Program-made: the position numbers and the translations under genes
NCBI GenBank assembly: GCA_020429915.1
Contig: JAGQKV010000018.1
Location: 5,770 to 69,769, forward strand
Direction of reading: 5' to 3'
Length of the DNA stretch: 64,000 bases
Source: Candidatus Omnitrophota bacterium
Lineage (GTDB): Bacteria; Omnitrophota; Gorgyraeia; Zapsychrales; Zapsychraceae
The notes under the pieces: generated by a model
The model's input: the letters and a program-made list of their open reading frames with translations, nothing else
What the model was told of the DNA's origin: nothing
The model's database searches: none
Shown: in pieces, positions 1 to 56,835 of the stretch
How positions within the stretch are numbered: position 1 is the stretch's first letter
How the letters are laid out: each line of letters begins with the position of its first letter

Positions 1-1
1 G

Positions 2-475
2 CGCCGTTGCGCGCACAAGAACGGGGCGGTGCTTCAGCCGGAGGAGCTGGAAGACCTGCACAACGACTTCTTTCTCTGTCTGCTGGAAGACAACAGCCGC
101 CGACTGCGGGCCTTCCGGGGCGACGCCATGCTGTCCACCTATCTGGGACGGATCGTTTTTAATCTGACCGTCGATTATCTCCGCCGGCGTCGAAGCCACT
201 GTTCGTTCGACGAATTCATGCTCACGTCCCGGGCGGACAGCGCCGATGAGGACTCGCCGCTGGACCAGGCGATCAGTGATGATCTTATCGAACTCGTCCG
301 CCGCTGCATGCCCCAACTCCCGGAAAAGGACAGAGGGATTATCGATCTGAAAATCTTTCAACGGCTGAGCGTCAATCAGATCGCGGACGAACTGGGTCTG
401 AAGGTGGAAACCGCCCGGGCACGGATCCAGCGGGCCCTGGAGAAACTACGGAAATTAGTGAAAAAAGTTCATTAG
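2..475 (+). CDS. RNA polymerase ECF-type sigma-70 factor, 5'-partial (reading frame open to the window edge)
   Basis: The region 2.1-2.2 pattern (FF..L...F.G.S...TYL..I..N...D.LRRRR) and a region-4 helix-turn-helix (LSVNQIADELGLKVETARARIQRALEKLR) are both visible. The frame has no stop upstream of the first ATG at 29. Confidence 0.8.
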   Translation, partial: RRCAHKNGAVLQPEELEDLHNDFFLCLLEDNSRRLRAFRGDAMLSTYLGRIVFNLTVDYLRRRRSHCSFDEFMLTSRADSADEDSPLDQAISDDLIELVRRCMPQLPEKDRGIIDLKIFQRLSVNQIADELGLKVETARARIQRALEKLRKLVKKVH

Positions 476-499
476 AAACAGCGAAAGTATCCGTCAACT

Positions 500-1168
500 A
501 TGCCGAAGGACAACACACCTGAAAAATTCAACATCACCGATGAAGCCGTCGCCCGGTATCTGGAAGGGGTGTGCAGCGCCGGTGAAAAAGAGCGGATCGA
601 AGAGGCGATGAAAAAAGACCCTGCCTTCAGAAAAGAACTGGATGACCTGCGCGAGATCGTCGGCGATTTCGATCCGAATGCCGGCACCGGTGTCCCCAAG
701 CACGTGGTCCGCCGCGCACAAGACCTCGTCCATCCCCGTTACGGCGCGCTTTTTATCGACATCCTCGCGGAAATAGCCGATGGCGCGTTCCGGCGCCTGT
801 CCACCGCGGCCACTGTCCTGTGCGGTCCGCAAACGGCTGAGCCGGTCATGCTGCGCGGGGAATCGTTCGTCCCTAAGCAGAATATCCTAGTCGAAAAAAG
901 GGTGGGGGACCTGGACATCCAGGTGGCGGTCGGCATCCATGCGGACAACCGTCAGATTACGGTATGCCTCCGCCGGGCGGACACCGGCCGGGACGCCGAC
1001 GGCGTCCGCGGATTACTTTTACTTGAAGGACAGGAGCTCGAGTCGCATCTGAGCGCCCGGGGCCGCATCGCCTTTGACGAGGTCGGCGACGGGGAATATT
1101 TTGTGGAACTGCGGCAGGGCGACGCATTGCTGGGCGCCGTCAAAATAAACCTGACTTCGCATGGCTGA
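500..1168 (+). CDS. anti-sigma factor-like protein (soluble, no TM segment seen)
   Basis: Lies 25 nt downstream of the ECF sigma gene. The N-terminal ~50 aa resemble an anti-sigma domain (VARYLEGVCSAGEKERIEEAM). Its 3' end overlaps the next gene by 8 nt. Confidence 0.5.
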   Translation: MPKDNTPEKFNITDEAVARYLEGVCSAGEKERIEEAMKKDPAFRKELDDLREIVGDFDPNAGTGVPKHVVRRAQDLVHPRYGALFIDILAEIADGAFRRLSTAATVLCGPQTAEPVMLRGESFVPKQNILVEKRVGDLDIQVAVGIHADNRQITVCLRRADTGRDADGVRGLLLLEGQELESHLSARGRIAFDEVGDGEYFVELRQGDALLGAVKINLTSHG

Positions 1169-2894
1169 GCGCGGCGCATCCCTCATACTGGACGTACAGG
1201 CCCGCGACGGGCAGATGACGCTCAGTCTGCACGACACCCGCTGTGCGGTCCGCGGGGTGGAAGACCATCCCGTTTCGTTTCCCGCGATACAATCCGCGTC
1301 GCAGCGCATCTACGGCCTCATTCAGCGCGCACATGAGATCGGCCGGTTCGATCCGGATATTAACGCGCAACTGACCGCGGCCGGGCGGGAACTTTTCGCG
1401 CTATTGATACCCGGCACGATCCGCGCGGCGCTTACCGAATCCCGGGCGGAACACCTGTTGCTGATTCTTGACGAAGGATTGCTCGGCATCCCGTGGGAGC
1501 TGGCGCATACCGGCGGGGATTTCCTCTGTATCAAATTCAATGTCGGCCGACAGATGCGTACCCGCAGGCCGCACCGGCCCGGACGCCACCGGACGGCCGG
1601 CCGCCCGTACCGTCTGCTGATCCTGGCCGACCCCTGCGGAAATCTGCCCGCGGCGCAAAAGGAGATGCAGGACCTCCGCAAAAAACTGGAGCAGGGCAAG
1701 GACCGTCTGGAGATCTCCACCAAATCCACCCGGATCACGCGCGACTACGTGGAACGCCATCTGCACCGGTATGACATCGTGCATTTCGCGGGTCACAGCG
1801 AGATTGATCCGCAGGCGCCGGAGAAGGGGGGCTGGGTCCTGACCGACGGCATCTGGTCGATCACGGACATCCAGCGGCTGGGTGCCCGGGACAGCCAGCC
1901 GGTGCTGGTCTTTTCCAATTCCTGCCGGTCAGCGTTTGACGGGCACAACGATACCCTGCACCGGGCCGGGGAGGAGATATCCGGCATCGCCAACGCCTTC
2001 ATCCTCAACGGCGTCCGCCACTTCGTCGGGACCCTCTGGAATGTCCCGGATGCCTCGGCGGGGACATTCGCCGCGGGATTCTACGCCCGACTTCTGAAAG
2101 GCGACGCCATCGGATCCGCTTTAAAGACGGCACGGCAGCAGGCCGCCTCCGCTGCCGGCGCGCATCAGCTGACCTGGGCGAACTACATTCTCTACGGCGA
2201 CCCGGCCACCGTCATCGTCGGTAAGAAAACATATCCCCGGCTGCGCCGTCTGGTCCCGGCGGCGGCCGGCGTTCTGGTATTGGCCGGGATACTGACGGCC
2301 ATCCTGGTGCAGCGGCAGGACCGGATAACGCAACGTTCCCGGCAGGCCGTCGTGGCCGAACAGACGGTGACGATCACCGGCGAGGAGGACGCCCTGCTGA
2401 AGGTGATCTTTGCCAATGAGCGCGTGCCGACCTATGTGTGGGAAGAATTTATTACCCGCAACGAAGAAGGCCTGCGCGCGGTGGACGGCCGGCTCGCGCC
2501 CGGCGTCAAGGCGTTGCGCATCAAACGAAACGGCGACCTGCACATCGAACGGGGAGATTATTTTCTGGCCGCCGAACAGTACCGGAAGGCCTTATCGTAC
2601 GTTTCAGGCGGGGATGCCGGGCATCTGTTTCTGCGCAGTATCCTGACGCTCGACCTGATCCAGGCCCTGGTGGAATCGGACCGCCTGCAGGCGGAGGCCC
2701 CGCTGAAAGAGTTTCGTACGGCCTTTGCCGCGGATCGCGCCCGCTTCACCGACTCCCAGCTGGCGTTTTTAATGCGCCGTTTCCAGCTCATCCGGATCTC
2801 TCTGTTCAAACTCGGGCTGAAAAACTCTCAATTTTACAACGAGCTGGATTCGGTGTATGATCAAGTCAAAGACACCCGCCGGACACGACCTTAA
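1161..2894 (+). CDS. CHAT-domain (caspase-like) protease, single TM then a ~160-aa C-terminal domain
   Basis: The CHAT His/Cys dyad context is present: HFAGHSE and VLVFSNSCRSAF. A hydrophobic span LVPAAAGVLVLAGILTAILV follows. The start overlaps the upstream gene by 8 nt. Confidence 0.8.
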   Translation: MAERGASLILDVQARDGQMTLSLHDTRCAVRGVEDHPVSFPAIQSASQRIYGLIQRAHEIGRFDPDINAQLTAAGRELFALLIPGTIRAALTESRAEHLLLILDEGLLGIPWELAHTGGDFLCIKFNVGRQMRTRRPHRPGRHRTAGRPYRLLILADPCGNLPAAQKEMQDLRKKLEQGKDRLEISTKSTRITRDYVERHLHRYDIVHFAGHSEIDPQAPEKGGWVLTDGIWSITDIQRLGARDSQPVLVFSNSCRSAFDGHNDTLHRAGEEISGIANAFILNGVRHFVGTLWNVPDASAGTFAAGFYARLLKGDAIGSALKTARQQAASAAGAHQLTWANYILYGDPATVIVGKKTYPRLRRLVPAAAGVLVLAGILTAILVQRQDRITQRSRQAVVAEQTVTITGEEDALLKVIFANERVPTYVWEEFITRNEEGLRAVDGRLAPGVKALRIKRNGDLHIERGDYFLAAEQYRKALSYVSGGDAGHLFLRSILTLDLIQALVESDRLQAEAPLKEFRTAFAADRARFTDSQLAFLMRRFQLIRISLFKLGLKNSQFYNELDSVYDQVKDTRRTRP

Positions 2895-3047
2895 ATTTTT
2901 TTTATAAAATTTGTCAGACTTTGCGAACGGTGCCGTCAACTACCATGACGGCCGCGCTTCGCGGTCCCGTTCAGCCATAATACAGACCAGGGCCACCGCC
3001 CGCGTCATATATCCAGTTATCCAAAATCGTAACCGGGGGAGAGTGTT

Positions 3048-6000
3048 ATGAAAAAGATAATCTTTGCACTGGGGCTGGGTGTCGTCCTGGCTGCCGGAAC
3101 CGCTTGGGCGGGATTCGACGGCCCGAACATCCGCGTCGATCATGAACCGACCAGCCTCAACGCCGTCAAAGGAAAGGTGGCGGCCGATAACGCCGGTCAC
3201 ATATACGTGGCGTGGGAGGACGAACGCAGCGGAGCGGGCGTTTACCTGAATTATTCCCACGACAACGGCGGCACCTGGCAGAGCAGCGACACCTTCCTCG
3301 AAATCCCCGGCAGTTCCTATCTGAAAGACCTCAAGATCCTCACCGACCAGTCCGGTCATGTTTATGTCACCTGGATTTACATCCTCAACAGCGCCAAGTA
3401 TGTGGCCTTCGGGTCGTCCTCCGATTACGGCGCGACCTGGTCCACGCAGACGGTCAACGTCGGCGAATCCGGCTGGTGGGTGGATGACGTGGATATGGAC
3501 CATGATGAGTCCGGCCACGTCTGCCTGACGGCGAGCGAGGGGGGATCGTTTCCGCTCAATCTCTACAGCAACTGTTCCGCTGATTACGGCGCGACATGGA
3601 TGGGCACGCACGTCAAGATCAACACCAATAACCCGTCGAGCGGACAGACGCAACGTGATATCAAAGTCTGCATGGATGACGGGGGCCACGTCTACACGGC
3701 CTGGGTCGACGGCCGCGACGGGGTCAGCGGAGGCTGGAAGTATGTCTACTCCAATCATTCCAGTGATTACGGCCAAAGCTGGGCGCAGGAACAGCGCATT
3801 GAACCGCCCTCTTATGCCCAAAACGCGGATAATCCCCAGATTGCCTGCGACAACAACGGCAATGTCCATGTCGCCTGGCATTCTTTTGACGGTCAATTTT
3901 ATCAAAATGAAATTTTCTACAATCACTCCGCGGACTACGGAGTGACATGGCCTAACCGTCAGACGTTCACTACGACAGGCCATTATCCCCGGGTGCAGGC
4001 CGGTGCCGGCGGTAAAGTTTATGTGACCTGGACCGACACATCAAATTCACCATACCTGACGATCCGTTTCCGCCGCTCCACGGACGGGGGAAACTCCTTT
4101 GATTCCGAGGTCCGGATCAACACCAGTCATGACACCGAGCAGGACCACTACGCCTTGAAGGCAGCGGGAAACAAGGTCGGCGTGCTGTGGGAGAATGTGG
4201 AACCGTGGGAAACGATCTACGCCAAATTTTCAGAGGACGCCGGGGTGACGTGGCAGGCAGAGGATATCGATGTCAGCAACGGAGGCTATAACAGCGACCT
4301 CCCTGATCTCGCGATGAGCGGCGGCGGCGAGATGTATGCCGTTTGGCAGGACAACCATACCGCCGGGTACAACATCTATTTCAAAACGGGCACCCCCGAC
4401 GGCCAGGCCGACGTGTCGGTCTTCCAGGACTTCGAACCGGGTAACGGCTCGGATGAGTACGGGTGGGCCTACCCGGGCGCGACGGCGGAACTCTCCACCG
4501 AACAGGTCCACGGCGGCACCCGCGCGTGGAAGGTCAGCTCCGGACAGATGTTTGCCGGGACCGGACTGCAGTCGCAGACGCAACGCTGGGATATGGACTT
4601 CCGTCCGGACATCAACGACCGCCTCACCTTCTGGATCTGGTCGGATCCCGCCACTCCCGCCGACAACACCGTGCTGCTCAAGCTGACGGACACCGGGACT
4701 TTTTCCACCGGTTTTGACGTATGGACGACCGAAAGCGCGGCGTATCAGGAGTGGACGCAGATCGAGGTCCTGTTCAGTCAGCTCCCGGACGGCTTTGATT
4801 TGAATCATGTGAACAAGATCGAGATCTTCAACTACGATGCGGGGACCTATTATTTCGATGACTTCGAGGTCACGGCCAAGGACCGGGTGTATCAGGCCTT
4901 TGAAGACTGCGCCGACGCCGGCGACTGCGGCTGGGCCTGGGGCGGAACCATCGGACTGCAAGGGACCATCGGCATCGAGGAAGAATACGTTTATGAAGGG
5001 GAGACCGCCTGGCGGCTCAACGCGACCGAGAACTGGGCGGGCACCGGGGTCAGGGCCCAGGTCAAGAGTTATGACGCCGTCAATGACGAACAGTCGTACT
5101 GGCATGTGGACCTCAATCCGGAGTTTAATGACCGGCTGACGTTCTGGGTCTACAATCTCGCCGAGAACGGCTTGGCCAACAATCTGGCCGTGCAGTTTTT
5201 CGATCATGACCAGCACTTTGAGGACCCGGTCGTTTACTGGACCACGGAGCGCGCGTTCTACGGGGAGTGGACCAAGCTGACCGTTCCCTTTGATGAACTG
5301 CCGCCGTCGCTCGACCTGACGAACATCAACAAGATCCAGTTCCAGGTGTACTGGAAAGGGGTTTACTACTTCGACGATATCCGCGCCACGCGCGGGGCAC
5401 CGGCGTTCGACAAGGATGTGCTGCCGGACGGCAACATCGCATGGGGCGCCGTACCCGGGGCCTTCGCCTATGAAGTTCAGCGCAGTGACGACGGGGATGA
5501 AGGCTGGGAAACGATCTTCACCGGCGGCGCGACCGGGTTCGGGTACAACGGCCTGAGCCCGAAGTATCTGCGCGTCCGCTGGAGCGAACAAACGTCCTTC
5601 CTTAATCCGAACCGTTACGTCGGCGACTGGCAGAGCCCCGTGCTGTATCAACCGCCGCAACCGGTCATCGATTACGACGCCCTGGCCGAGGGCGACATCG
5701 CCTTCATCATGACGGGCCAGGGGACTCAGTACCAGGTGGAGTCCGCAACCGGCCCCGACGGTCCGTGGTCGCTTCTCTACGACGGTCCGTCGACGGTCCT
5801 CACTGATCAGGCCGAGGATTACGAGTACTACCGCGTGCGCGCCGTCAGAGAAGTCAGCGGACAGATCGTCGATCAGACCGACTGGAGCCCGGCGGTCAGC
5901 TACCGTCCCGGCTTGTACGTCAAAGCGGTCAACCAGCAATTGAAAGAGGACAACGGGCAGGGCGGCACACTGGTCCTGCGCGGCATCAATCTGGGGAACC

Positions 6001-7589
6001 TGCTGTTGATCGAGCCGGAGTTTACCGGCATCGGCGGGAATTTCACCGGGTCCATTGCCACGGATGACGATGACTACGGGATCCGGGAAAACCTGATCGC
6101 CCGCTTCGGCGACGACGACCTGCTGCTCGATTATCAGGCCGCGTATATCACCGAGATGGACTTCGACCATATCATGCGCACCGGGGCCAATTTCGTGCGG
6201 CTGCCGATTTACTACCGCGTCGTCGAAGACGCGTCCGGCAATTTTACCCGGTTCGACAAGATTGACGAGGTGATCCGCCACTGCGCCAACCGCGGCCTGT
6301 ACGTGCTGCTCGACCTGCACGGCGCGCCCGGGGCACAGAGCGAGGAACATCATGCCGGACGGATGGATTACAACAAACTGTTCGAGGACTCGTCGCTCGG
6401 CGAGGACTATCGCGCCCGCACCGTGGCCTTCTGGGATGCCGTGTCTGAACGCTACAAAGACAATCCTGTTGTCGTGGGTTACGATATCCTCAACGAGCCG
6501 TTCGGCGCCGACGACCATGACCCCACCTTTGTCGCGGACAACGGCCTGTGGACCCTGTACGATGCCATCTACGACGCCATCCGGGCCAACGACAGCCAGC
6601 ACCTGATCGTCATGGAGACGATCCCGTCCGAATTCGACTGGAACACGCTGCCCGATCCGGACGACTACAACTGGCAGAACGTGATGTATCAGGTCCACTA
6701 CTATTGCTTCCTGTTCGATGAGCAGGGCAACATCAACGGGATCTGCAGCACGGAAGGCCATGAAGAGTATCTCTTCGGCAAGATCACCAATGCCAAGCAG
6801 TCCCAGTACAATGTCCCGGTCCTGGTCGGGGAGTTCAACGGGTTCGACAACCGCGCCAACTGGATCACCCATATGCAGAATTATACGAATGAAGGCTGGA
6901 GCTGGGCGATGTGGTCCTACAAGACCCATCCGTCGCTGGCCAACTGGGGACTGTTCGTGCATGACATCGACGACGCGGACCTGCCGGATGTCACCGTGGA
7001 CAGCGCGCAGACCCTCCAGCAAAAATTCGCCCGCTACACCACAGCCCGGCATATCGCCGACACGTCGCTGACCATGCTGTTGTCTCAGTACCTGAAACCG
7101 GAGGCGCCGTCCATTACGGTAAACATCACCCCGGCATCGGCAGTTGCGGCAGGGGCGCAATGGCGCCTGCGGCGCGGGCCGGACACCAGCTGGCACGACA
7201 GCGGAGAGACCATCGACAACCTGCGGCCCGGCACTTATAAGGTAGTCTTCAAACGATTACACGGCTTTGATAAGCCGGCCAACCAATACGTGACCGTGAT
7301 CGACGCGCCGGTCACCGTGACCGGGGATTATGTGGAGCGTACGGACGGATCGGTAACCGTCACCATCCAACCCTCCGCCGCGGCCGCGGTCGGGGCGCAG
7401 TGGCGCCTGAGCAGCGGACCGGACACATCATGGAAGGACAGCGGCGACACGATCGTCGTCCCGAAAGGCCGCTACCGGATCCGCTTCAAGAAGATCAACG
7501 GCTACTACCGTCCGAACACCATCCGCATCAATGTCGGCTACGGCCAAGCGGTGAGCAGGACGGGGTTTTATATGCCGAAGAGTTATTAA
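3048..7589 (+). CDS. secreted multidomain glycoside hydrolase: N-terminal BNR/Asp-box propeller, two CBM-like jelly-roll modules, FN3-like region, GH5 catalytic domain, two C-terminal ~80-aa repeats
   Basis: Signal peptide MKKIIFALGLGVVLAAGTAWA. At least seven Asp-box motifs (SHDNGGTW, SSDYGATW, SADYGATW, SSDYGQSW, SADYGVTW, STDGGNSF, SEDAGVTW). GH5 signatures: GINLGN, acid/base NEP in VGYDILNEPFG, nucleophile in VLVGEFNGF. An RBS-like GGGGGAGAG precedes the ATG. Confidence 0.85.
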   Translation: MKKIIFALGLGVVLAAGTAWAGFDGPNIRVDHEPTSLNAVKGKVAADNAGHIYVAWEDERSGAGVYLNYSHDNGGTWQSSDTFLEIPGSSYLKDLKILTDQSGHVYVTWIYILNSAKYVAFGSSSDYGATWSTQTVNVGESGWWVDDVDMDHDESGHVCLTASEGGSFPLNLYSNCSADYGATWMGTHVKINTNNPSSGQTQRDIKVCMDDGGHVYTAWVDGRDGVSGGWKYVYSNHSSDYGQSWAQEQRIEPPSYAQNADNPQIACDNNGNVHVAWHSFDGQFYQNEIFYNHSADYGVTWPNRQTFTTTGHYPRVQAGAGGKVYVTWTDTSNSPYLTIRFRRSTDGGNSFDSEVRINTSHDTEQDHYALKAAGNKVGVLWENVEPWETIYAKFSEDAGVTWQAEDIDVSNGGYNSDLPDLAMSGGGEMYAVWQDNHTAGYNIYFKTGTPDGQADVSVFQDFEPGNGSDEYGWAYPGATAELSTEQVHGGTRAWKVSSGQMFAGTGLQSQTQRWDMDFRPDINDRLTFWIWSDPATPADNTVLLKLTDTGTFSTGFDVWTTESAAYQEWTQIEVLFSQLPDGFDLNHVNKIEIFNYDAGTYYFDDFEVTAKDRVYQAFEDCADAGDCGWAWGGTIGLQGTIGIEEEYVYEGETAWRLNATENWAGTGVRAQVKSYDAVNDEQSYWHVDLNPEFNDRLTFWVYNLAENGLANNLAVQFFDHDQHFEDPVVYWTTERAFYGEWTKLTVPFDELPPSLDLTNINKIQFQVYWKGVYYFDDIRATRGAPAFDKDVLPDGNIAWGAVPGAFAYEVQRSDDGDEGWETIFTGGATGFGYNGLSPKYLRVRWSEQTSFLNPNRYVGDWQSPVLYQPPQPVIDYDALAEGDIAFIMTGQGTQYQVESATGPDGPWSLLYDGPSTVLTDQAEDYEYYRVRAVREVSGQIVDQTDWSPAVSYRPGLYVKAVNQQLKEDNGQGGTLVLRGINLGNLLLIEPEFTGIGGNFTGSIATDDDDYGIRENLIARFGDDDLLLDYQAAYITEMDFDHIMRTGANFVRLPIYYRVVEDASGNFTRFDKIDEVIRHCANRGLYVLLDLHGAPGAQSEEHHAGRMDYNKLFEDSSLGEDYRARTVAFWDAVSERYKDNPVVVGYDILNEPFGADDHDPTFVADNGLWTLYDAIYDAIRANDSQHLIVMETIPSEFDWNTLPDPDDYNWQNVMYQVHYYCFLFDEQGNINGICSTEGHEEYLFGKITNAKQSQYNVPVLVGEFNGFDNRANWITHMQNYTNEGWSWAMWSYKTHPSLANWGLFVHDIDDADLPDVTVDSAQTLQQKFARYTTARHIADTSLTMLLSQYLKPEAPSITVNITPASAVAAGAQWRLRRGPDTSWHDSGETIDNLRPGTYKVVFKRLHGFDKPANQYVTVIDAPVTVTGDYVERTDGSVTVTIQPSAAAAVGAQWRLSSGPDTSWKDSGDTIVVPKGRYRIRFKKINGYYRPNTIRINVGYGQAVSRTGFYMPKSY

Positions 7590-8141
7590 GCAATAAGGGA
7601 AATCGCTTTCAAAATACTACGCAATTATGGCAATTTTAGATTGTCGACGAGAACCAAAACATTTTTGATAGATGCAGCGGACGGAAAGCATCCGCACAGA
7701 CATAACTATCTGGTTTTCCGTGAATTATGAGCCCTGGTCATTTTCAATTCATTCTGGTCAGATATATTGTAGCCTGTTACCATAAGAAGAATTCCCCGAT
7801 CGCACCTTCAATAGATATCCTGGTTCGCATTTCGAGTATGCGATAGCTCACAACGTCTTTATTGAATCAGGATAAAAGAATTGATCCCAATTGAGAATGA
7901 TTCGTCCGACCGGACGATTCTGAAATCTTCCCGCCGTCAGATTGCATTTTGGCAATCTGACGGATTACACGAGGGAACTGATGCTAAAACCGTATAGATT
8001 TTTCTCAAAATATTTTGGATAATTCGATATACTCTTCGGCATTAATAGATAGGGGGCCAAACATCGAGTACTTACCTTGTATCTTTCACCGTAATTTCTA
8101 AGCCAACTTGATTATTATTGCCGATTCGTCCTTATTCTCTT

Positions 8142-8221
8142 AGGGTAGCTCCCTGAGAGAACCCCAAAGCAATTAAAAGAGCGGATTTCTGGTGCACCAG
8201 CCGGGGATCCGCTCTTTTTTT
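8142..8221 (+). repeat. ~80-bp structured repeat, copy A (AGGGTAGCTCCCTGAGAG ... GCGGAT-loop-ATCCGC + T-run)
   Basis: Small hairpin AGGG-tagct-CCCT, then 17 nt, then hairpin agagcggat/atccgctct followed by TTTTTTTT (8178-8221). The loop carries the 12-bp palindrome ctggtgcaccag. Confidence 0.55.
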
Positions 8222-8309
8222 GGGGACAGTTATTCGCCATCATCTGTCTGTCCTTATCTTGGATGATTTCTATATATTCAGACAACCGATATACATATGG
8301 AGGCTATCG

Positions 8310-8783
8310 ATGCCGCTAAGCATGAAAGGTCGACTTCGATCATCCGATTGTCATGCGTTTACGCTTATTGAAATAATGCTGGTGCTGATTATTATGGTGA
8401 TCCTGGCCACTATAAGCAGCCGTATGTTGTTCGGAAGTTTGCCGAAGGCAAAAAATCGGACCGCCTATATCGAGATCAGAACTACTCTCAAGAGCGCCCT
8501 GGAGGAATATTATTTGGATACGGGAGACTATCCCACCACGGAGGAAGGACTAGTGGCACTGGTAAGAAAACCGAGCGAATCACAACATTCAGATAAATGG
8601 CTGGGGCCTTATCTTGAAGACCTGCGGCATCCGATAGACCCGTGGGAGAGAAAGTACATGTATCAATATCCCGGTCAACACAATACACATAAATATGATC
8701 TTTATTCCTTGGGAAAGGATGGCGTGGAAAGTGATGACGATATCGTGAATTGGCTTGAGGAAGGTTCCTTACTGGATTCATAA
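8310..8783 (+). CDS. gspG: type II secretion system major pseudopilin GspG (type IV pilin-like N-terminus)
   Basis: Prepilin motif AFTLIEIMLVLIIMVILA. GspG core IDPWERKYMYQYPGQHNTHKYDLYSLGKDGVESDDDIVNW. RBS GGAGG at 8299-8303. Codon usage is markedly AT-richer than neighbouring genes. Confidence 0.85.
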   Translation: MPLSMKGRLRSSDCHAFTLIEIMLVLIIMVILATISSRMLFGSLPKAKNRTAYIEIRTTLKSALEEYYLDTGDYPTTEEGLVALVRKPSESQHSDKWLGPYLEDLRHPIDPWERKYMYQYPGQHNTHKYDLYSLGKDGVESDDDIVNWLEEGSLLDS

Positions 8784-8811
8784 AAGGACGAAAACCAACA
8801 GCCAAACTTCT

Positions 8812-8886
8812 CAGGGTCGCTCCCTGTGAGGTGGAATACAAATTATTGACGGAACTCTGGTGCGCCGGCCGGATTTCCGTTTTTTA
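8812..8886 (+). repeat. ~80-bp structured repeat, copy B (AGGGTCGCTCCCTGTGAG ... CGGAA-loop-TTCCG + T-run)
   Basis: Same architecture as copy A. The first 18 nt match 16/18 and the hairpin loop (ctggtgcgccggccgg) is similar. It ends in TTTTTT at 8881-8886. Confidence 0.55.
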
Positions 8887-8967
8887 TGGCAAGCACATAT
8901 CCGGGAAGGATCCAACAAATGTGGGGGACGACATATAGTGTGAAACAACTCTAACAGGGGGTGCGAA

Positions 8968-11900
8968 GTGAGCAGACGATTTCAAACCAAACGCTCTAAA
9001 TGTTTCGGCAAAGTCAGGAATGATCACGGTTGTCAAATATTGTATCGCCATCTGTTCCGGGTGGGAATGTTGGCGATACTCTTCCTCATGCGCGGTTCCT
9101 GTGCGGCCGCTGATACGGTCATTACCAATATTCAGGAGTTGCAGGACATCAATCTTAATCCGGGAGGATCATACATTCTCGCCAATGATATCAACGCAGC
9201 CGAAACGGCGGATTGGAACAACGGGGAAGGTTTTGATCCCATTATGGATTTTAACGGAACGTTTGACGGGAAGGGTTATACAATCTATGGCTTGACCATT
9301 AACCGCCCCACCACGGACAAGGTCGGTTTATTCGGGGCCATCGTTAATGACGGACATGTCAGTGATGTTTCCCTTTATGGGGCAAATATCTCCGGTAACA
9401 ACAAGGTCGGCACGCTGGCCGGTTATCTCTTTTTGGCCGATGTCGCGGATATCGCGGTCCATCAAAGTCAGGTAAACGGCTCCCAGCGGGTCGGCGGGTT
9501 GGTCGGGGAAAGTTATAACGGGCACGGCATTACAGACGCACTGGTCGATGACGTTGGCGTGTCAGGCATCTCGGAAGTCGGGGGATTGGTGGGACGGACA
9601 TGGGATGGAACCATAAATACCATCCTGCGGGCCGCAGTCACGGCCGATGTCACGGCCATCAGTAATATGGCCGGCGGCATCGCGGGCTACACCAAAAGCA
9701 GCGACATCCTTGAGAGTTTTGCGGAGGGTTCGGTCTCCGGGAATATGGGCGTCGGTGGCATTGCCGGATATACGATCGAAAATGCCGGAATCCATAACTG
9801 TTACGCCGTCAACAGCGTTGCCGGCAACCAATATACGGGGGGAGTAGCGGGACTTTTTTATTCCTACCATGACGGCGTCAGCAACACATACTTTGCGGGA
9901 ACCGTTGACGGCAATAGTCCGGTTGGCGGATTTATCGGAGCCAAGTTTGCCGGGACATCGGTCGCAAACTACTGGGATACGGATCTGAATTCCGGTCTAA
10001 ACAGCGTCGGCAGCGGTAACGGCGCCGGCATTACCGGTAAGACCACGGCCGAATTGTCGCAATTGGCCACCTACCTTGGTTGGGATTTTGAAACGGTATG
10101 GCTGATCAACGGATCATATCCGCGGCTGCAATCACTGAACGATATACCCGGTGGCGGCGAAACCCCTTACTCGCCGGCAACACTTGCCATCCAACCGGGA
10201 ACCAATTTTCTGTCCAATCCGTCCGGAGTCCCGATTCACATTCAGGACGCGCGTTTACGCTTTCGGGCGACGGGCGGTACCAACTCCAATAATGCCGATA
10301 CATTACAAGTATATGATCCGGTACTGGGCGGGTTCCGGCTTTTCTTTTTCGTGAGCAATGCGGAATACATTCCCGAAGAATTTCGGCACAAGTGGTACGA
10401 TACCGGCAACGGTCAAATTGCGGACTATGTTCTAAATCCAGGGACAGGCTTTATCTACACAAACAAGGCGACGGAATCCTTCCCGTGGACGGAGTACCCC
10501 GTGACCGGTTTGCTGCGTTCGCGCACCAGCGTTCATTTGACTCCCAATTACAACCTGATCGCGCACCCTTACGGTGTCGCCGTGGATTTAAATGAGACGC
10601 GGCTGACCGAGATTGCCGAGCCAGGTGATCATGTCTATATCGATGACAACGGACTCCTGCGTTATGACTGGGTTACCGGCTCGGGTGATCCAGAGCTCGA
10701 TAATCATTTTGTGGCGGAAGGCACCTCCGAAGTATCTCCGATTCCGTTGAAGGCGGGGGAGGGTTTTTACTTCTTTAACGCCGCCACCGAAACCAAGATT
10801 TGGCGGGTAATGAATCCCAACTTCCGGCGTATAGCTGTCAGCGGAATCGAACCCGGACCGGACAATTTCCTGTCCAATCCGATGGACAAACCGATTAATA
10901 TTCAGAAAGCAGCCTTTACGGAAAACGCCGTCGGTAATATCGACGCCTACCTGGCCGACAATATTTCCGTTTTCAATTCGGCGAGCGGACTTACGGAATA
11001 CCTCTACTTCATCGGAGAAGATCCGACCGTACCTGAAGAGTACCAGAATAAGTGGTTCGATCCGGTCCAAATGAAACCATCCGAGGTGCTTTTACAACCG
11101 GGAGAGACCTTCACCTACGACAGTAAAGCGGCCGACAGCAGGGTTTGGGTTGAGGGGGCAAGTACATCAACGCCCGTCGCGGTGTATGTGGAAATTGTGA
11201 ACGGTTTCAATAATATATCCAACCCCTTAAGCGTTCCCATTCACCTGCAAAGTGCCGGCATCCAGAATCCGGTCTATTCTTCTAACTGCGCCCTTGCTGA
11301 CCGAGTCGTTGTTGATGGACAGCCGTCATTTTATTGCCATTTAACCGGTAATCCGCTTTCCTGGAGCCTGAATCTGCTATTGGAACCGGGCGCGGGTATA
11401 TCTTATCTTCGTCAGGGGGGAGATACCTGGTGGCAAGAAAAGTTACTGGCCGGAAGCAAGAGTCGCATCGACGGTAACCAGCTGAAGATTCAACGCCGTC
11501 TCTCCAACGGGGCATTGGGTCAGGAAGAGGTGTTTACCATAAAAGGAGTCAATTACTCACCCGTCGACATAAACGAAACGGTATCAAGTTACGAAGAGCA
11601 TCGTACGCACATGACCTTTGACAATGACAAGATAGAATCAGACTTTCAGTCAATGCTGGACATGGGCGTAAACACCATCCGGACCTACGTGGATCCCGGA
11701 CTGGATGTTGAGGCCTGGAAGGACTTCATGGATAAAGCCTATGAATACGGATTGATGGTATTGATCAATGTCCGGACGTCCGACTTCGGTTCGTTTTCCT
11801 TTGCCACCCCGCACGTATGCCCGGCGCCGACCCAGTTTGAATACTCGAAGGTCGTCGGACACTTTAAAGATCATCCCGCACTGTTAGGTTGGATGATCGG

Positions 11901-13200
11901 AAACGAATGGAATATCAATCTGGAAAACAATGTCGTTAAGCCGTTCTATTGCTACAACAGTGTTCATGATGCAGCCGAAGGGGTCGAACGCACGGCAGCA
12001 GGTTACTTATCGTGGACTCAGGGTATTAAGGAACTGGACCCGGATCACATTGTCGCATCATCTTTGGGTTTCATTCAAACATACCAGATGAACGGCGGGT
12101 ACATTGATCTGTTTACTCCGGAGGATGAGGTCAATTTCGGTGAATTCGCGGACATCTTCGCTACCGCTCCGAGTGTGGACCTGTGGGCCTTCAATCTGTA
12201 TCGAGGAAATAGTTTCAACACATTCTTCGCACAATGGAAACGCGCATTTCCCAATAAACCGATCCTCATTACCGAGTTCGGCACTGACGCCTATGACCAT
12301 GTTGCGGGATCTGTCAACCCACAGCAACAGGCCGATACTTACCGGGCGCTATGGAGAGAAATCATCCGCAATGCCTCAGCCATAGATCCGGACAGGCAGG
12401 TTGTCGGCGGCTTTGCCTTCGAATGGAATGACGAGTGGTGGAAGGCAGGCAATCCGGCCAATCACGATGCCAGCGGGTTCCAGTTGAAGGTATGCTATGG
12501 TAATCAGGTCCCCGGCGGGACCGCCCCAACCGTGTGTTTTTACGGTCATCCAGACGATGGGCATTCCAATGAGGAATATTACGGTCTGCTGGATACTGTC
12601 CGCAATCCGCGCGACGCCTACGCCACGATGATGACCGAGTATCAAAGTTCACTCATACCCTCTGAAAACGTATTGCTGGGAGCCCGCAGCCAGACCGGTA
12701 TCGGCGGCCAGGGATCCGAGTTGTCTTATGCTGCCTTCTTTAAGAACGGTGCCCCCCTGGCACTGCGTTATGCAACCGAGGGAGGCACACCGGCGGCACG
12801 CGGGTACAATGTAATGGTCGTCGACGGTAATACCGGCACACCAAAAGACCTGCGCACATTCGACATGTGGCCTGCGGGTGTGGCCGTTCCGCAATGCACC
12901 GAATTCGAAAATTACGCGATGGACCCGGGCAACTTTTCGCCGGGAGACATCGTCCTGGTAGCTGTTGCCGATACAGGGACACCGATCAATGTCCCCTTCC
13001 AGGACTGTCAGGATGCGCTGGTTAAACTGGGAAGCACGGACAACCTGGCGACACTCGGCGGCAATAAACCGTACGTTCTCATCTCTCAAATGAATGCGAC
13101 GGGCAACGCGACAAAATGTATCGAGGAAATTGGGACGCAGTCGAACACAATCATCGACGAGAACTGTACTGTGTCGCTGCCTGAAGTAGTTCTGCCATAA
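8968..13200 (+). CDS. secreted GLUG-repeat protein with three ~170-aa novel repeats and a clan GH-A (TIM-barrel) glycoside hydrolase domain; C-terminal ~180-aa domain of unknown type
   Basis: GTG start (alternative ATG at 9067 just before the hydrophobic signal MLAILFLMRGSCAAA). GLUG-type N-terminus (FDGKGYTIYGLTI...VGLFG, repeated VGGLVG/VGGIAG). Repeats begin NFLSNPSGVPIHIQ, NFLSNPMDKPINIQ and NNISNPLSVPIHLQ. Hydrolase motifs GVNYSP, MIGNEWN and ILITEFGTDAYD. Confidence 0.8.
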   Translation: MSRRFQTKRSKCFGKVRNDHGCQILYRHLFRVGMLAILFLMRGSCAAADTVITNIQELQDINLNPGGSYILANDINAAETADWNNGEGFDPIMDFNGTFDGKGYTIYGLTINRPTTDKVGLFGAIVNDGHVSDVSLYGANISGNNKVGTLAGYLFLADVADIAVHQSQVNGSQRVGGLVGESYNGHGITDALVDDVGVSGISEVGGLVGRTWDGTINTILRAAVTADVTAISNMAGGIAGYTKSSDILESFAEGSVSGNMGVGGIAGYTIENAGIHNCYAVNSVAGNQYTGGVAGLFYSYHDGVSNTYFAGTVDGNSPVGGFIGAKFAGTSVANYWDTDLNSGLNSVGSGNGAGITGKTTAELSQLATYLGWDFETVWLINGSYPRLQSLNDIPGGGETPYSPATLAIQPGTNFLSNPSGVPIHIQDARLRFRATGGTNSNNADTLQVYDPVLGGFRLFFFVSNAEYIPEEFRHKWYDTGNGQIADYVLNPGTGFIYTNKATESFPWTEYPVTGLLRSRTSVHLTPNYNLIAHPYGVAVDLNETRLTEIAEPGDHVYIDDNGLLRYDWVTGSGDPELDNHFVAEGTSEVSPIPLKAGEGFYFFNAATETKIWRVMNPNFRRIAVSGIEPGPDNFLSNPMDKPINIQKAAFTENAVGNIDAYLADNISVFNSASGLTEYLYFIGEDPTVPEEYQNKWFDPVQMKPSEVLLQPGETFTYDSKAADSRVWVEGASTSTPVAVYVEIVNGFNNISNPLSVPIHLQSAGIQNPVYSSNCALADRVVVDGQPSFYCHLTGNPLSWSLNLLLEPGAGISYLRQGGDTWWQEKLLAGSKSRIDGNQLKIQRRLSNGALGQEEVFTIKGVNYSPVDINETVSSYEEHRTHMTFDNDKIESDFQSMLDMGVNTIRTYVDPGLDVEAWKDFMDKAYEYGLMVLINVRTSDFGSFSFATPHVCPAPTQFEYSKVVGHFKDHPALLGWMIGNEWNINLENNVVKPFYCYNSVHDAAEGVERTAAGYLSWTQGIKELDPDHIVASSLGFIQTYQMNGGYIDLFTPEDEVNFGEFADIFATAPSVDLWAFNLYRGNSFNTFFAQWKRAFPNKPILITEFGTDAYDHVAGSVNPQQQADTYRALWREIIRNASAIDPDRQVVGGFAFEWNDEWWKAGNPANHDASGFQLKVCYGNQVPGGTAPTVCFYGHPDDGHSNEEYYGLLDTVRNPRDAYATMMTEYQSSLIPSENVLLGARSQTGIGGQGSELSYAAFFKNGAPLALRYATEGGTPAARGYNVMVVDGNTGTPKDLRTFDMWPAGVAVPQCTEFENYAMDPGNFSPGDIVLVAVADTGTPINVPFQDCQDALVKLGSTDNLATLGGNKPYVLISQMNATGNATKCIEEIGTQSNTIIDENCTVSLPEVVLP

Positions 13201-13206
13201 TAATCC

Positions 13207-13236
13207 GGGGCAGCGCCCTCAATTGGGCGCTGCCCC
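13207..13236 (+). terminator. GC-rich hairpin (12-bp perfect stem, 6-nt loop) 7 nt after the stop codon; weak U-tract
   Basis: ggggcagcgccc-tcaatt-gggcgctgcccc. Confidence 0.5.
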
Positions 13237-13467
13237 ACAATTTGCACTACGGCTCGACAACTTGACTATTGAGATGCCGGAGCATACAATTCAATTAAAA
13301 TTCATGAATAGTAAGTCAGGCAGCTACACGCGCTACATGAACACAAATGCAAGTAATACAACTCACCCGGCCGACAGTTGGCTTTCATGTTAACGCCACG
13401 GGTAAGAATCTTAACGCTATTCGAAATCTACTTCTACAAAACCAAATTAACCGGAGTCATTTAACTC

Positions 13468-13740
13468 ATGAATGAAGAAGCGAAACCTCGCCAATCCGAA
13501 AATAAAGAAAAACTCCCCACCTCCGCCTACATCATGTGCGGCTGGCCGCTGGTGCTGGTTTTTGTGGGCGGGGCGCTCGGCGGGGGATTGGGAGGAGCGG
13601 CCTTCGCGATCAACTTCGAGATCTACAAATCCAGACTCCCGGTTGCGGTCAAGGTCATCCTCAACATCCTCACCGGCCTGTCCGCCGTCATCCTGTGGCT
13701 GGTCATTGGTACGTATATTCACGCGAAATTTAGCGGTTAG
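13468..13740 (+). CDS. small two-TM membrane protein, hypothetical
   Basis: Two hydrophobic helices with a Gly-rich stretch. GGAG lies 11 nt upstream. It sits in an AT-rich intergenic zone, so the call is weak. Confidence 0.35.
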   Translation: MNEEAKPRQSENKEKLPTSAYIMCGWPLVLVFVGGALGGGLGGAAFAINFEIYKSRLPVAVKVILNILTGLSAVILWLVIGTYIHAKFSG

Positions 13741-50597: not shown

Positions 50598-50702
50598 ACA
50601 AAAGATCCTCTGATTTCAGCTACTTATGAGAATGATGATCAGATGGAAGTATATCATTCGGATAGTGGGGATGCAAAGATATCGCGCGAGCGACCCAAGC
50701 GC

Positions 50703-51731: not shown

Positions 51732-51736
51732 GTTCT

Positions 51737-54413: not shown

Positions 54414-54421
54414 GTCCGTCG

Positions 54422-56442: not shown

Positions 56443-56469
56443 TCCTGGATTCAATGTTCAGAATGAATC

Positions 56470-56834: not shown

Positions 56835-56835
56835 A

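What the first reader, a model, noticed from the sequence alone, without database searches (positions are those of the whole stretch)
7590..8966. Low-GC island carrying an orphan gspG pseudopilin bracketed by two copies of an ~80-bp hairpin/terminator repeat
Two giant, high-GC glycoside-hydrolase genes are separated by ~1.38 kb of visibly AT-richer DNA. This stretch includes ~580 bp with no ORF above 60 aa on either strand (7590-8140). It contains a single complete GspG-type pseudopilin gene with no other T2SS genes (gspC-F, H-O) nearby.

The gene is flanked by two similar elements at 8142-8221 and 8812-8886. Both read AGGG-loop-CCCT hairpin, then a 15-17-nt spacer, then a stem-loop with T-run. 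Their 5' 18-mers match 16/18 and the hairpin loops are related (ctggtgcaccagccgg vs ctggtgcgccggccgg).

This looks like a horizontally acquired or element-associated insertion, or a repeat family that acts as a terminator/insulator. An orphan pseudopilin next to very large secreted enzymes could serve a non-canonical secretion role.
Basis: seen in the sequence. Interest (0 to 1): 0.55.

Follow-up and report, generated by a model that had tools for sequence, protein, structure and literature searches.

The report
Inserted pseudopilin–exoprotein cassette with conserved hairpin-terminators
A 5.6-kb piece of foreign DNA in an Omnitrophota genome carries an extra secretion-pilus subunit gene and a large secreted protein, each preceded by a ~90-base hairpin-plus-terminator element conserved almost letter for letter in a distant organism, which points to an undescribed regulatory signal.

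Summary
A sister strain (92.6% identical) shows a ~5.6-kb insertion, window 7588 to ~13205, between the GH5 stop codon and that gene's old terminator hairpin.

The insert holds a 545-nt AT-rich, ORF-poor leader, element A, an intact gspG paralog, element B, and the 1410-aa secreted GLUG/TIM-barrel/ILEI protein.

The same cassette, in the same order with both elements, occurs in one other organism, a low-GC one (Logan contig L054). There GspG is ~45% identical and the big protein ~60%. No further member of this GspG sub-clade was found among 5.8 billion protein clusters. The other close GspGs examined sit in full T2SS operons.

The ~90-nt elements are two-hairpin, plus-strand structures ending in a U-run. 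The terminator hairpin is 43/44 identical between organisms whose codon third positions are only 35-37% identical, so sequence as well as shape is selected. The elements match no Rfam family and occur nowhere else in the window.

Best reading: a horizontally moved pseudopilin-exoprotein cassette whose genes are gated by conserved hairpin-terminator, attenuator-like elements. The function of the elements and of the extra pseudopilin is inferred, not shown.

The parts
7588..13205 (+). Strain-specific insert (the cassette): leader, element A, gspG, element B, 1410-aa gene. The left junction is at the GH5 stop codon. The right junction lies between 13201 and 13209.
   Evidence: Sister contig L002 is collinear with the window up to 7587 (92.6% over 7.6 kb). 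Homology resumes at L002 8470-8632 = window 13210-13396 (local score 80.5 against shuffles 22.7 +/- 3.0). Insert GC is 0.502 against flanks of 0.60 and 0.59.
7590..8131 (+). AT-rich, ORF-poor leader (GC 0.40)
   Evidence: No contained ORF exceeds 39 aa. GC. L054 has a counterpart of 640 nt with GC 0.31.
7773..7885 (+). Block inside the leader that is conserved with L054 2255-2370. Its nature is unresolved: a short coding frame, or an RNA or DNA signal.
   Evidence: Local alignment 47.5 against shuffles 27.8 +/- 3.8. tblastx + frame KKNSPIAPSIDILVRISSMR / ESNSPRVPSESNLVRISSVR. The 39-aa ORF 7727-7846 exists in the window only.
8132..8224 (+). Element A: hairpin 1 at 8135-8161 (loop UAGCU), linker at 8162-8174, hairpin 2 (terminator stem-loop) at 8175-8218, U-run at 8215-8221
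   Evidence: Fold -55.8 kcal/mol, z -8.2. CM scores 107.9 and 104.6 bits. Hairpin 2 is 43/44 identical to L054 copy B'.
8299..8303 (+). GGAGG ribosome-binding site of gspG
   Evidence: Read from the sequence
8310..8783 (+). gspG paralog: an intact major pseudopilin of 157 aa, with leader ...CHA|FTLIE
   Evidence: Pfam and NCBIfam. PDB PulG 1e-21. The predicted fold matches only major pseudopilins at E <= 1e-4. All residues that are invariant in a 13-sequence alignment are present.
8803..8891 (+). Element B: hairpin 1 at 8807-8831 (loop UCGCU), hairpin 2 at 8844-8886, U-run at 8880-8885. This is the more diverged copy.
   Evidence: Fold -36.9 kcal/mol, z -3.9. CM scores 84.7 and 73.4 bits. Compensatory changes relative to A.
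8928..8939 (+). ACGACATATAGT: a block conserved with L054 between element B and the big gene. It is -10-like and may be a promoter.
   Evidence: Alignment A7. Not tested functionally.
8968..13200 (+). 1410-aa secreted protein, co-inherited with gspG: N-terminal hydrophobic signal-like segment, GLUG/M26_N region, TIM-barrel GH-like region, ILEI domain
   Evidence: Pfam. Its only full-length homolog is P0184 (59%, 98% coverage), which lies next to the gspG paralog P0010 in L054.
13207..13236 (+). Hairpin GGGGCAGCGCCC-TCAATT-GGGCGCTGCCCC. It lies outside the insert and is the counterpart of the hairpin that directly follows GH5 in the sister strain.

Best explanation
SHOWN.
- The low-GC stretch is the left part of a ~5.6-kb cassette, window 7588 to ~13205. 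It was inserted between the GH5 stop codon and GH5's former terminator hairpin in one lineage of a Candidatus Omnitrophota population.
- The cassette order is: AT-rich leader, element A, gspG paralog, element B, 1410-aa exoprotein.
- It is an evolutionary unit. The same order, with both elements, occurs in a different genomic context in a second organism with ~42% GC.
- The gspG is an intact major pseudopilin that has left the T2SS operon in which its nearest relatives sit.
- Elements A and B are conserved plus-strand two-hairpin structures whose second hairpin plus U-run has the form of an intrinsic terminator. They are under selection for primary sequence as well as for pairing.

INFERRED.
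- The cassette came by horizontal transfer from a lower-GC, probably Omnitrophota, donor.
- Transcription starts in the leader, or reads through from GH5. The two elements then act as conditional or leaky terminators (attenuators) in front of each cassette gene. The invariant apical parts (AGGG-UNGCU-CCCU and CUGGUGCACCAGCC) would be the recognition surface for a host-encoded factor.
- The extra GspG is assembled by the host T2SS, which is encoded elsewhere, and serves the export or surface display of the co-transferred exoprotein.
For: Insertion and junctions:
- Searches give both junctions. Accession order in two genomes agrees.
- The arrangement is reproduced in independent assemblies, so it is not an assembly artefact. 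L001 and L053 are 100% and L014 is 99.95% identical to the window, and the protein is indexed in 91 blocks.

Composition:
- gspG GC3 is 0.475 against 0.687 +/- 0.067 for the window. Insert GC is 0.502 against 0.60 in the flanks.
- The L054 cassette matches its own 42% GC background.

Cassette conservation:
- L054 carries A' (2562-2652), a 220-aa gene, gspG P0010, B' (3889-3980) and the 1433-aa P0184.
- A profile search gives 299 and 271 bits for the two paralogs, and 180 bits or less for everything else among 5.8e9 clusters.
- The nearest other GspGs lie in gspE-F-G-H...D operons.

GspG integrity.

Element structure:
- 91% of cells are paired, and 7 pairs have double changes among 4 copies. 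Between 0 and 1 of 500 shuffles reach these values.
- Three G.U pairs are kept in three or all four of the copies.
- All four copies fold better on the + strand.
- A U-run of 6-8 follows every copy.

Sequence selection:
- Hairpin 2 is 43/44 and 38/44 identical across organisms. Third codon positions of gspG and the big gene are 37% and 35% identical.
- The second loop base of hairpin 1 is A in both upstream copies and C in both downstream copies.

Attenuator geometry:
- In L054 A' the next start codon is 33 nt after the U-run. In a phage look-alike it is 25 nt. The element therefore lies in the 5' UTR there, and the gene needs read-through.

Association of T2SS-like genes, small class-III-signal genes and glycoside hydrolases with very large secreted proteins in Omnitrophota is reported in 10.1101/2023.11.21.568195 and 10.64898/2026.06.07.730766.
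Against: - No integrase, transposase, tRNA or flanking direct repeat marks the insert. The mechanism of entry is therefore unknown.
- Loss of the cassette in the sister lineage is not formally excluded.
- At the 5.6-kb scale the composition is only marginally deviant.
- There are only two cassette instances, and the L054 organism is unidentified.
- A conserved -10-like block lies between element B and the big gene. If it is a promoter, element B would be an ordinary terminator for gspG.
- No conserved alternative (antiterminator) pairing appears when the 3' arm is withheld. Hairpin 1 does not overlap the terminator, unlike RAT or ANTAR targets. No candidate RNA-binding antiterminator is encoded in the window or in L054.
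- The host T2SS was not located.
- Pair counts come from an alignment fitted to the model, which favours the structure.
- The copy number of the element in the rest of the source genome could not be measured. The genome is in neither scanned DNA collection.
Confidence: 0.55

Rival explanations
1. The elements are ordinary intrinsic terminators that insulate three independent transcription units (GH5 or leader, gspG, big gene). Their similarity is only shared ancestry, and the pseudopilin-exoprotein adjacency has no functional meaning.
For: GC-rich stems are followed by U-runs in all copies. A -10-like conserved block lies downstream of element B. No alternative fold is conserved. There are 77-88 nt of spacer before the genes in three of four copies.
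Against: Terminators need shape, not sequence. Yet hairpin 2, loop included, is 43/44 identical where synonymous sites are at 35-37% identity. A second conserved hairpin always precedes it. In L054 A' only 33 nt separate the U-run from the next ATG. The gene pair is retained in both known instances, while the GspG sub-clade has no other member.
Confidence: 0.2
2. Each element is the body of a small RNA of ~90 nt: 5' hairpin, single-stranded CCCAAAG-type linker as seed, terminator hairpin. One would be released from the 3' end of the leader transcript and one from the gspG 3' UTR. They would be sibling sRNAs acting in trans.
For: The architecture is that of typical bacterial sRNAs. Element B starts 20 nt after the gspG stop codon. 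The linker CCCAA is shared by three of the four copies. Primary-sequence conservation exceeds that of the neighbouring coding DNA. The weak, sub-threshold Rfam hit is to an sRNA of like shape (mmgR, 16.7 bits against a gathering score of 41).
Against: The linker is the least conserved part (38-77%). The best-conserved part is the terminator hairpin, not a single-stranded seed. No target was identified. No promoter or processing site is defined.
Confidence: 0.12
3. The elements act at the DNA level as recombination or cassette-boundary sites, like integron attC sites or the PeSL promoter-stem-loop cassettes of T4-type phages, and they mediate gain and loss of the gene between them.
For: Two similar palindromic elements flank one accessory gene. 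Between A' and gspG, L054 has an extra 220-aa sigma-like gene that the window lacks, an indel directly next to an element. PeSLs are a precedent for conserved intergenic stem-loop cassettes that shuffle genes (PMC2839356).
Against: The junctions of the insert do not coincide with the elements: the left junction is 545 nt upstream of A, and the right junction is after the big gene. No integrase or recombinase is nearby. The conserved G.U pairs and the strand asymmetry point to RNA. There are no attC core sites. A and B are only 62% identical, which is poor substrate for homologous exchange.
Confidence: 0.06
4. There was no horizontal transfer. The cassette is ancestral at this site, the sister strain deleted it, and the low GC3 of gspG reflects gene-specific codon use.
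For: There are no mobility genes or target duplications. The composition of the whole insert is barely outside the window's range. Other low-GC stretches exist at 47-58 kb.
Against: The sister has ~45 nt of its own sequence at the junction, and a GH5-proximal hairpin that in the window follows the cassette. The cassette sits in an unrelated context in L054 (M16 peptidase/SnoaL ... RuvB-like). gspG has the most deviant GC3 of 41 genes.
Confidence: 0.07

Closest known systems
GspG / PulG / EpsG / XcpT, the major pseudopilin of type II secretion systems (NCBIfam TIGR01710, Pfam PF08334)
   Same: Class III signal peptide with F+1 and E+5, a long hydrophobic N-terminal helix, and the DPW...Y.Y.PG...YDLYSLGKDG.ESDDDI.NW core. 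It scores above the equivalog cut-off, and its predicted fold matches only major pseudopilins.
   Different: It is encoded alone, far from any gspC-F or gspH-O gene, inside a strain-specific cassette. The stretch after the transmembrane helix (residues ~33-60) is divergent and is shared in its oddity only with P0010. It has a C-terminal extension. Ala rather than Gly at -1 is common in Omnitrophota GspGs and so is not special.
Protein-controlled terminators that bracket the first gene of an operon: E. coli bgl t1/t2 around bglG. Also the Klebsiella nasF leader (upstream hairpin plus factor-independent terminator, bound by NasR) and the ANTAR dual-hairpin targets.
   Same: Two related hairpin-plus-terminator elements in one co-oriented gene string, one before the first gene and one between the first and second. 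The conserved apical sequence sits on a covarying stem. The upstream hairpin is separated from the terminator by a linker, as in nasF.
   Different: Hairpin 1 does not overlap the terminator. The loops are 5 nt, not ANTAR-type hexaloops. No antiterminator gene (BglG/SacY, ANTAR) lies in or near the cassette. No alternative pairing is conserved.
PeSL composite promoter / stem-loop cassettes of T4-type phages (PMC2839356, PMC4122927)
   Same: Conserved intergenic cassettes, lying between a stop codon and the next Shine-Dalgarno, that contain a terminator stem-loop with G.T pairs and flank accessory genes in variable regions.
   Different: PeSLs carry a consensus sigma-70 promoter, occur in dozens of copies, and coincide with rearrangement breakpoints. 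Here no consensus promoter was found, there are two copies, and the breakpoints lie elsewhere.
T2SS-like loci and small class-III-signal genes next to giant secreted proteins in Omnitrophota (10.1101/2023.11.21.568195; 10.64898/2026.06.07.730766)
   Same: The same phylum, with the same association of pilus or secretion components, glycoside hydrolases and very large secreted proteins.
   Different: Those loci hold multi-gene secretion systems (gspD/E/F, Tad) beside genes of more than 25 kb. Here a single major pseudopilin travels with a 4.2-kb gene as a compact cassette. The papers do not mention conserved non-coding elements in the passages found.
REP/BIME-type intergenic palindromic repeat families
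   Same: Short imperfect palindromes in intergenic DNA, sometimes acting as terminators or mRNA stabilisers.
   Different: REP families are present in tens to hundreds of copies spread across a genome. Here there are two copies in 64 kb plus ~9.5 kb, both inside one cassette and syntenic in a second organism.

Membership tests
GspG major pseudopilin (TIGR01710 / PF08334) | Whole-protein score above the curated equivalog cut-off | tested here: met
   125.4 bits against 88.85. Pfam T2SSG 103.9 bits against 21.
GspG major pseudopilin (TIGR01710 / PF08334) | Prepilin (class III) signal: short basic leader, G/A at -1, F at +1, E at +5, then a ~20-residue hydrophobic helix | tested here: met
   MPLSMKGRLRSSDCHA|FTLIEIMLVLIIMVILA. 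N_methyl domain 8e-6. Ala at -1 occurs in 6 of 12 aligned Omnitrophota homologs. Cleavage itself is not testable here.
GspG major pseudopilin (TIGR01710 / PF08334) | Pseudopilin fold: long alpha-1 helix, alpha-beta loop, small beta-sheet, C-terminal Ca-binding loop | tested here: met
   The model (pLDDT 65, moderate) has helix 19-71 and two strands. The top 15 PDB matches are all major pseudopilins (E 2e-7 to 1e-4, TM up to 0.74), and the next match has E 0.7. The D/S/D residues of DGVESDDDI are invariant.
GspG major pseudopilin (TIGR01710 / PF08334) | Encoded within a gsp operon (gspC-O) | tested here: not met
   No other T2SS family in the window or 9.5 kb upstream. Homologs P0007, P0009 and P0011 are in full operons. 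This bears on the gene's context, not on the protein's family.
Intrinsic (Rho-independent) terminator | Stable GC-containing stem-loop immediately followed by a run of U on the transcribed strand | tested here: met
   Hairpin 2 plus 6-8 U in all four copies.
Intrinsic (Rho-independent) terminator | Transcripts end at the U-run in vivo or in vitro | not testable with these tools
   Needs Term-seq or in vitro transcription.
Any Rfam family (release 15) | Covariance-model score at or above the gathering threshold | tested here: not met
   No hit at gathering score in 64 kb. No hit at E <= 10 in 7400-9200. Only sub-threshold noise in L054 (best 17.2 bits against a gathering score of 50).
REP-like / generic terminator repeat family | Many dispersed copies per genome | tested here: inconclusive
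   Two copies in the window, and none elsewhere in the window, L001/L061, the sister contig or other Omnitrophota loci. The full source genome was not available: neither DNA scan returned the window's own copies.
Protein-dependent antitermination targets (RAT, ANTAR) | The antiterminator hairpin overlaps and competes with the 5' arm of the terminator. ANTAR also requires two hexaloop hairpins. | tested here: not met
   A 13-17 nt linker lies between hairpin 1 and the terminator. The loop is a pentaloop. No conserved alternative pairing is seen. The definition of these features is from my own knowledge.
Integron attC site | Single imperfect palindrome with R''/R' core sites (RYYYAAC ... GTTRRRY) and an integron integrase nearby | tested here: not met
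   Two separate hairpins plus a U-run. I saw no core sites when reading the sequence. No integrase family among the ORFs scanned.
PeSL composite promoter-terminator cassette | Consensus sigma-70 promoter combined with the stem-loop. Copies coincide with rearrangement breakpoints. | tested here: not met
   No promoter-like site at or next to the elements in either organism. The breakpoints are at 7588 and ~13205, not at the elements.
Horizontally acquired genomic island | Present or absent between close relatives, with precise junctions | tested here: met
Horizontally acquired genomic island | Deviant composition | tested here: inconclusive
   gspG GC3 is -3.2 sd. For the whole insert, GC 0.502 is only just below the lowest other 5.6-kb window (0.505), and the tetranucleotide distance is ~1.5 sd.
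Horizontally acquired genomic island | Mobility genes, tRNA target or flanking direct repeats | tested here: not met
   None found.

The most novel reading that the evidence does not exclude
The hairpin-terminator element is an undescribed class of cis-regulatory RNA. A sequence-specific host factor would recognise it and gate expression of a mobile 'pseudopilin plus cargo' cassette. The detached GspG would be a cargo-dedicated major pseudopilin that re-tools the resident T2SS for one very large exoprotein. A phage may carry the same hairpin-1 signal in front of a structural gene and so use the same host factor.
Probability: 0.2. Interest if true: 0.7.

Novelty: new variant of a known kind. 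Interest (0 to 1): 0.45.

Why it matters
How T2SSs choose their substrates is a long-standing question. A major pseudopilin that moves between genomes together with a single large exoprotein would be a natural experiment on whether pseudopilus composition contributes to cargo specificity.

The non-coding element is the most conserved sequence of the cassette. It is more conserved than either gene, which is unusual for a terminator, and it makes a concrete, small target for Term-seq, reporter and pull-down experiments in a phylum with almost no genetics.

The case also shows that accessory secretion cassettes contribute to strain-level variation around the large secreted proteins that are thought to underlie the predatory or host-dependent lifestyle of Omnitrophota.

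If the elements turn out to be plain terminators, the finding reduces to an ordinary accessory-gene insertion.

Tried and rejected
1. Rfam at gathering score and at E <= 10 found nothing.

2. The pattern scan of 185,579 species genomes with AGGGTNGCTCCCT-gap-CTGGTGCNCC gave 11 hits.
- Seven are the reverse strand of a conserved M1-peptidase HEXXH...WW coding stretch.
- The other four show no resemblance beyond the pattern.
- None is an element.

3. The metagenome scan with the hairpin-1 pattern gave 8 hits. Four are chance hits. The other four are one phage sequence.

4. The viral scans gave only chance hits.

5. Phage origin of the cassette is rejected.
- There is no DNA match in 50,697 phage records.
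- The only GspG-like hits there are two 220-kb 'Acinetobacter phage' records at 37%.
- PHROG hits to gspG are weak and limited to the N-terminus.
- Relatives of the phage with the look-alike hairpin lack it.

6. The element is not associated with the exoprotein family in general. The partial homolog P0191 has neither an element nor a gspG nearby.

7. A riboswitch-like intrinsic antiterminator is rejected. Folding the nascent RNA without the 3' arm gives a different pairing in every copy.

8. Similarity of the sister strain's downstream gene to either large window gene: none.

9. The NCBI copy of the sister genome could not be fetched. Two further contigs were identical or near-identical to the window and so uninformative.

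10. The leader as a whole is not unusually structured once element A is set aside. The conserved block has fold z-scores of +0.8 and -1.6.

11. A consensus sigma-70 promoter between element A and gspG was not found.
Full report
**Observation**

- GC drops from about 0.60 to 0.40-0.47 between 7500 and 9000.
- No ORF contained in 7590-8140 exceeds 39 aa.
- A 157-aa gene at 8310-8783, preceded by GGAGG, is a bona fide major pseudopilin. Pfam T2SSG gives 6e-30 and N_methyl is present. TIGR01710 scores 125 bits against a cut-off of 89. PulG in the PDB matches at 1e-21. The predicted fold, from a moderate-confidence model, matches only major pseudopilins.
- It is the only T2SS component in the window. 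About 45 ORFs were scanned with Pfam. A six-frame search found only one prepilin motif. A further 9.5 kb upstream holds none.

The two ~90-nt elements, 8132-8224 and 8803-8891, are far beyond chance.
- Their diagnostic 22-mer and 18-mer occur only there, with shuffle expectations of 0.00 and 0.31.
- They fold as hairpin, linker, long hairpin, U-run, much better on the + strand (z -8.2 and -3.9) than on the - strand (-4.5 and -0.5).
- Covariance models find no third copy in 64 kb.

**Source organism and relatives**

Exact-sequence look-ups place the window in a Candidatus Omnitrophota MAG (KC900_ locus tags, proteins MCA93946xx). The locus is reproduced in independent assemblies (L001 and L053 identical, L014 99.95% identical), so it is not a chimera.

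A sister strain (H6756_, MCB97216xx) is represented by the 9.3-kb Logan contig L002.
- L002 is 92.6% identical to the window over 7.6 kb, up to position 7587, two bases short of the end of the GH5 stop codon. After that it loses all similarity.
- Homology resumes further on. L002 8470-8632, the hairpin GAGCAGCGCCC...GGGCGCTGCTC and what follows it ~45 nt after the sister's GH5, aligns with window 13210-13396. That is the region right after the stop codon of the 1410-aa gene (score 80.5 against 22.7 +/- 3.0 for shuffles).
- The 90-aa gene at 13468-13740 and the 1840-aa gene are shared at 90% identity or more.
- Neither gspG nor the 1410-aa protein has any relative between 60% and 99% identity in the collection that holds the sister's proteins.

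So the island is not 7590-8966. It is a 5.6-kb insert, 7588 to about 13205, placed between GH5 and its former terminator hairpin. The second 'flanking hydrolase' is part of the insert.

Composition agrees, but is not decisive on its own.
- gspG has the lowest GC3 of 41 genes (0.475 against 0.687 +/- 0.067).
- The big gene has GC3 0.595.
- The insert has GC 0.502 against 0.60 in the flanks, yet another part of the window reaches 0.505.

**The cassette is a conserved unit**

The 1410-aa protein has one full-length homolog, P0184 (59% identity, 98% coverage). P0184 lies on a 9-kb Logan contig, L054, directly downstream of P0010. P0010 had turned up as an unusual hit in the GspG search.

L054 comes from a ~42% GC organism. 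There the cassette matches the local composition and sits between unrelated genes: M16 peptidase and SnoaL_2 on one side, a RuvB-like ATPase on the other.

The order in L054 is:
- a 640-nt AT-rich, ORF-poor leader;
- element A' (2562-2652);
- a 220-aa protein with a weak sigma-70 region-2 match, absent from the window;
- gspG;
- element B' (3889-3980);
- the big gene.

A profile built from the two GspG paralogs scores them at 299 and 271 bits. Everything else in 5.8 billion clusters scores 180 bits or less. The closest other GspGs, at ~50% identity, lie in complete gspE-F-G-H-...-D operons of other Omnitrophota. The pseudopilin is therefore a detached paralog that travels with one particular large secreted protein.

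**The elements**

With four copies the two-hairpin structure is supported.
- 91% of cells are paired. Seven pairs show changes on both sides, five of them in the lower stem of hairpin 1.
- Three G.U pairs are kept in three or all four of the copies.
- At most 1 of 500 shuffles reaches the observed values. One caveat applies: the alignment was fitted to the model.
- All copies fold better on the + strand.
- All end in 6-8 U.

The striking point is primary-sequence conservation.
- Codon third positions of gspG and the big gene are 37% and 35% identical between the two organisms, which is essentially saturated.
- Hairpin 2 is 43/44 identical between window A and L054 B', and 38/44 between window A and L054 A'.
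- The apex of hairpin 1, AGGG-UNGCU-CCCU, is invariant. Its second loop base is A in both upstream copies and C in both downstream copies. The A/B duplication therefore predates the split of the two cassettes.
- Window copy B has drifted (66-68% in hairpin 2) but keeps the pairing.

A terminator needs only shape, so something else reads the sequence. The elements match no Rfam family. They were not found near other Omnitrophota T2SS loci, near a partial homolog of the big protein, or in the sister contig.

**How the elements most likely work**

Geometry favours elements that sit in the 5' part of the downstream gene's transcript. In L054 A' the next ATG is 33 nt after the U-run, too close for a conventional promoter. 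All cassette genes are co-oriented behind a long leader.

Two related hairpin-terminators, one before the first gene and one between the first and second, recall the bgl t1/t2 arrangement and the nasF leader (my own knowledge, not checked here).

Several points count against a classical antiterminator target.
- Hairpin 1 does not overlap the terminator.
- No alternative pairing is conserved.
- No RNA-binding antiterminator is encoded nearby.
- A conserved -10-like block, ACGACATATA(G/T)T, lies between element B and the big gene in both organisms. It could be a separate promoter, which would make B the plain end of the gspG transcript.

My ranking is:
- factor-dependent or leaky attenuators, about 0.35-0.4 of the probability for the element's role;
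- ordinary insulating terminators, 0.2;
- sibling sRNAs, 0.12;
- DNA-level recombination sites, 0.06. This last is disfavoured because the insert junctions do not coincide with the elements.

**Role of the pseudopilin**

The protein keeps every residue that is invariant in a 13-sequence alignment, including E+5 and the Ca-binding DG.ESDDDI motif. Ala at -1 is common in this phylum. It should therefore be processed and assembled by the resident T2SS, which I could not locate.

Its co-inheritance with one exoprotein suggests a cargo-linked function. So does the reported clustering in Omnitrophota of secretion and pilus genes, small class-III-signal genes and glycoside hydrolases around very large secreted proteins (10.1101/2023.11.21.568195; 10.64898/2026.06.07.730766). 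This is inference only.

**Limits**

- Only two cassette instances are known.
- The L054 organism is unidentified.
- The source genome outside the window could not be scanned. Neither large DNA collection returned the window's own copies.
- The direction of the indel rests on composition, on the sister's private junction sequence, and on the cassette's different context in L054.

**Verdict**

The finding is a new variant of known things: an accessory major pseudopilin, an intrinsic-terminator-like element and a strain-specific insertion. Together they form a compact transferable cassette whose most conserved part is non-coding. Interest is moderate, at 0.45.

Noticed in passing
L021 2199-2296 (also L020, L024, L026; JGI contigs Ga0307376/78/79/80): A phage contig carries a 23-mer, CTCTTAGGGTAGCTCCCTGAGAG, identical to hairpin 1 of element A, including the same G.U pair. 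The 715-aa gene on it matches PHROG head-tail adaptor/portal at 9e-44. The 23-mer is followed after a short linker by a different long terminator hairpin and a U-run, and it lies 25 nt upstream of the next gene. R2 scores it 33 bits. Variants of the phage have an extra small ORF inserted just upstream. Related phages (50% portal identity) lack the hairpin. It could be a third family member or a coincidence, since the locus was pre-selected by a pattern scan.
   Followed up: partly
window 7773-7885; L054 2255-2370: A ~110-nt block inside the otherwise unalignable leaders is conserved (z about 5). Over 20 codons the + frame reads KKNSPIAPSIDILVRISSMR against ESNSPRVPSESNLVRISSVR, with several synonymous differences including an AGT/TCA serine switch. 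The window has a 39-aa ORF without an evident Shine-Dalgarno. L054 has no canonical start codon. It may be a gene relic, a leader peptide, or an RNA or DNA signal.
   Followed up: partly
L054 2684-3346: A 220-aa gene with a weak Sigma70_r2 match (7.8e-5, below Pfam's threshold) lies between element A' and gspG in L054. By eye it also has a region-4-like C-terminus. It has no counterpart in the window or in L001.
   Followed up: partly
window 13397-13467 versus L002 8633-9331: There is a second indel next to the first. Accession order places three genes in the sister strain (MCB9721641-639) between the shared post-GH5 intergenic region and the shared 90-aa gene. The window has only ~70 nt there. 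The first of those genes is a signal-peptide protein starting at L002 8942, with no homolog in the window.
   Followed up: partly
window 8928-8939; L054 4019-4030: A conserved ACGACATATA(G/T)T block lies ~30 nt upstream of the start codon of the big gene in both organisms, followed by a conserved AGGGGG ribosome-binding site. It is a possible -10 element.
   Followed up: no
window 8355 (protein residue 16) and alignment A3: Ala instead of the canonical Gly at position -1 of the prepilin cleavage site occurs in about half of the Omnitrophota GspG homologs aligned. This suggests a phylum-wide peculiarity of prepilin peptidase specificity.
   Followed up: no
window 1-7589 and L061 6784-12395: The GH5 gene (1513 aa) is preceded by a conserved string: two ECF sigma genes, a zf-HC2 anti-sigma factor, two unannotated ORFs, a 222-aa protein and a CHAT-domain/C25-like protease. 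The part of the string covered by the sister contig L002 is shared with the sister strain.
   Followed up: no
window 47752-63961 (- strand): This is a lower-GC region (0.48-0.55). It holds an exosortase (EpsH), DUF3485, PEP-CTERM proteins, glycosyltransferases, a polysaccharide deacetylase, a sigma-54 response regulator with a GAF histidine kinase, and a PocR-GAF protein. It looks like a PEP-CTERM/exosortase exopolysaccharide locus.
   Followed up: no
window 56393-56472 (- strand): A two-hairpin, AT-rich terminator-like structure scored 23 bits with model R1. It matches through shape only and shares no sequence with the elements.
   Followed up: partly
L003, L004, L008-L011, L013 (genome-contig hits): The two-part DNA pattern matched the reverse strand of a conserved M1-aminopeptidase HEMAHQWW... 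coding stretch in Acidobacteriota and Bacteroidota, always with a 57-nt span. Identical spacing among pattern hits can therefore come from a conserved protein motif.
   Followed up: yes
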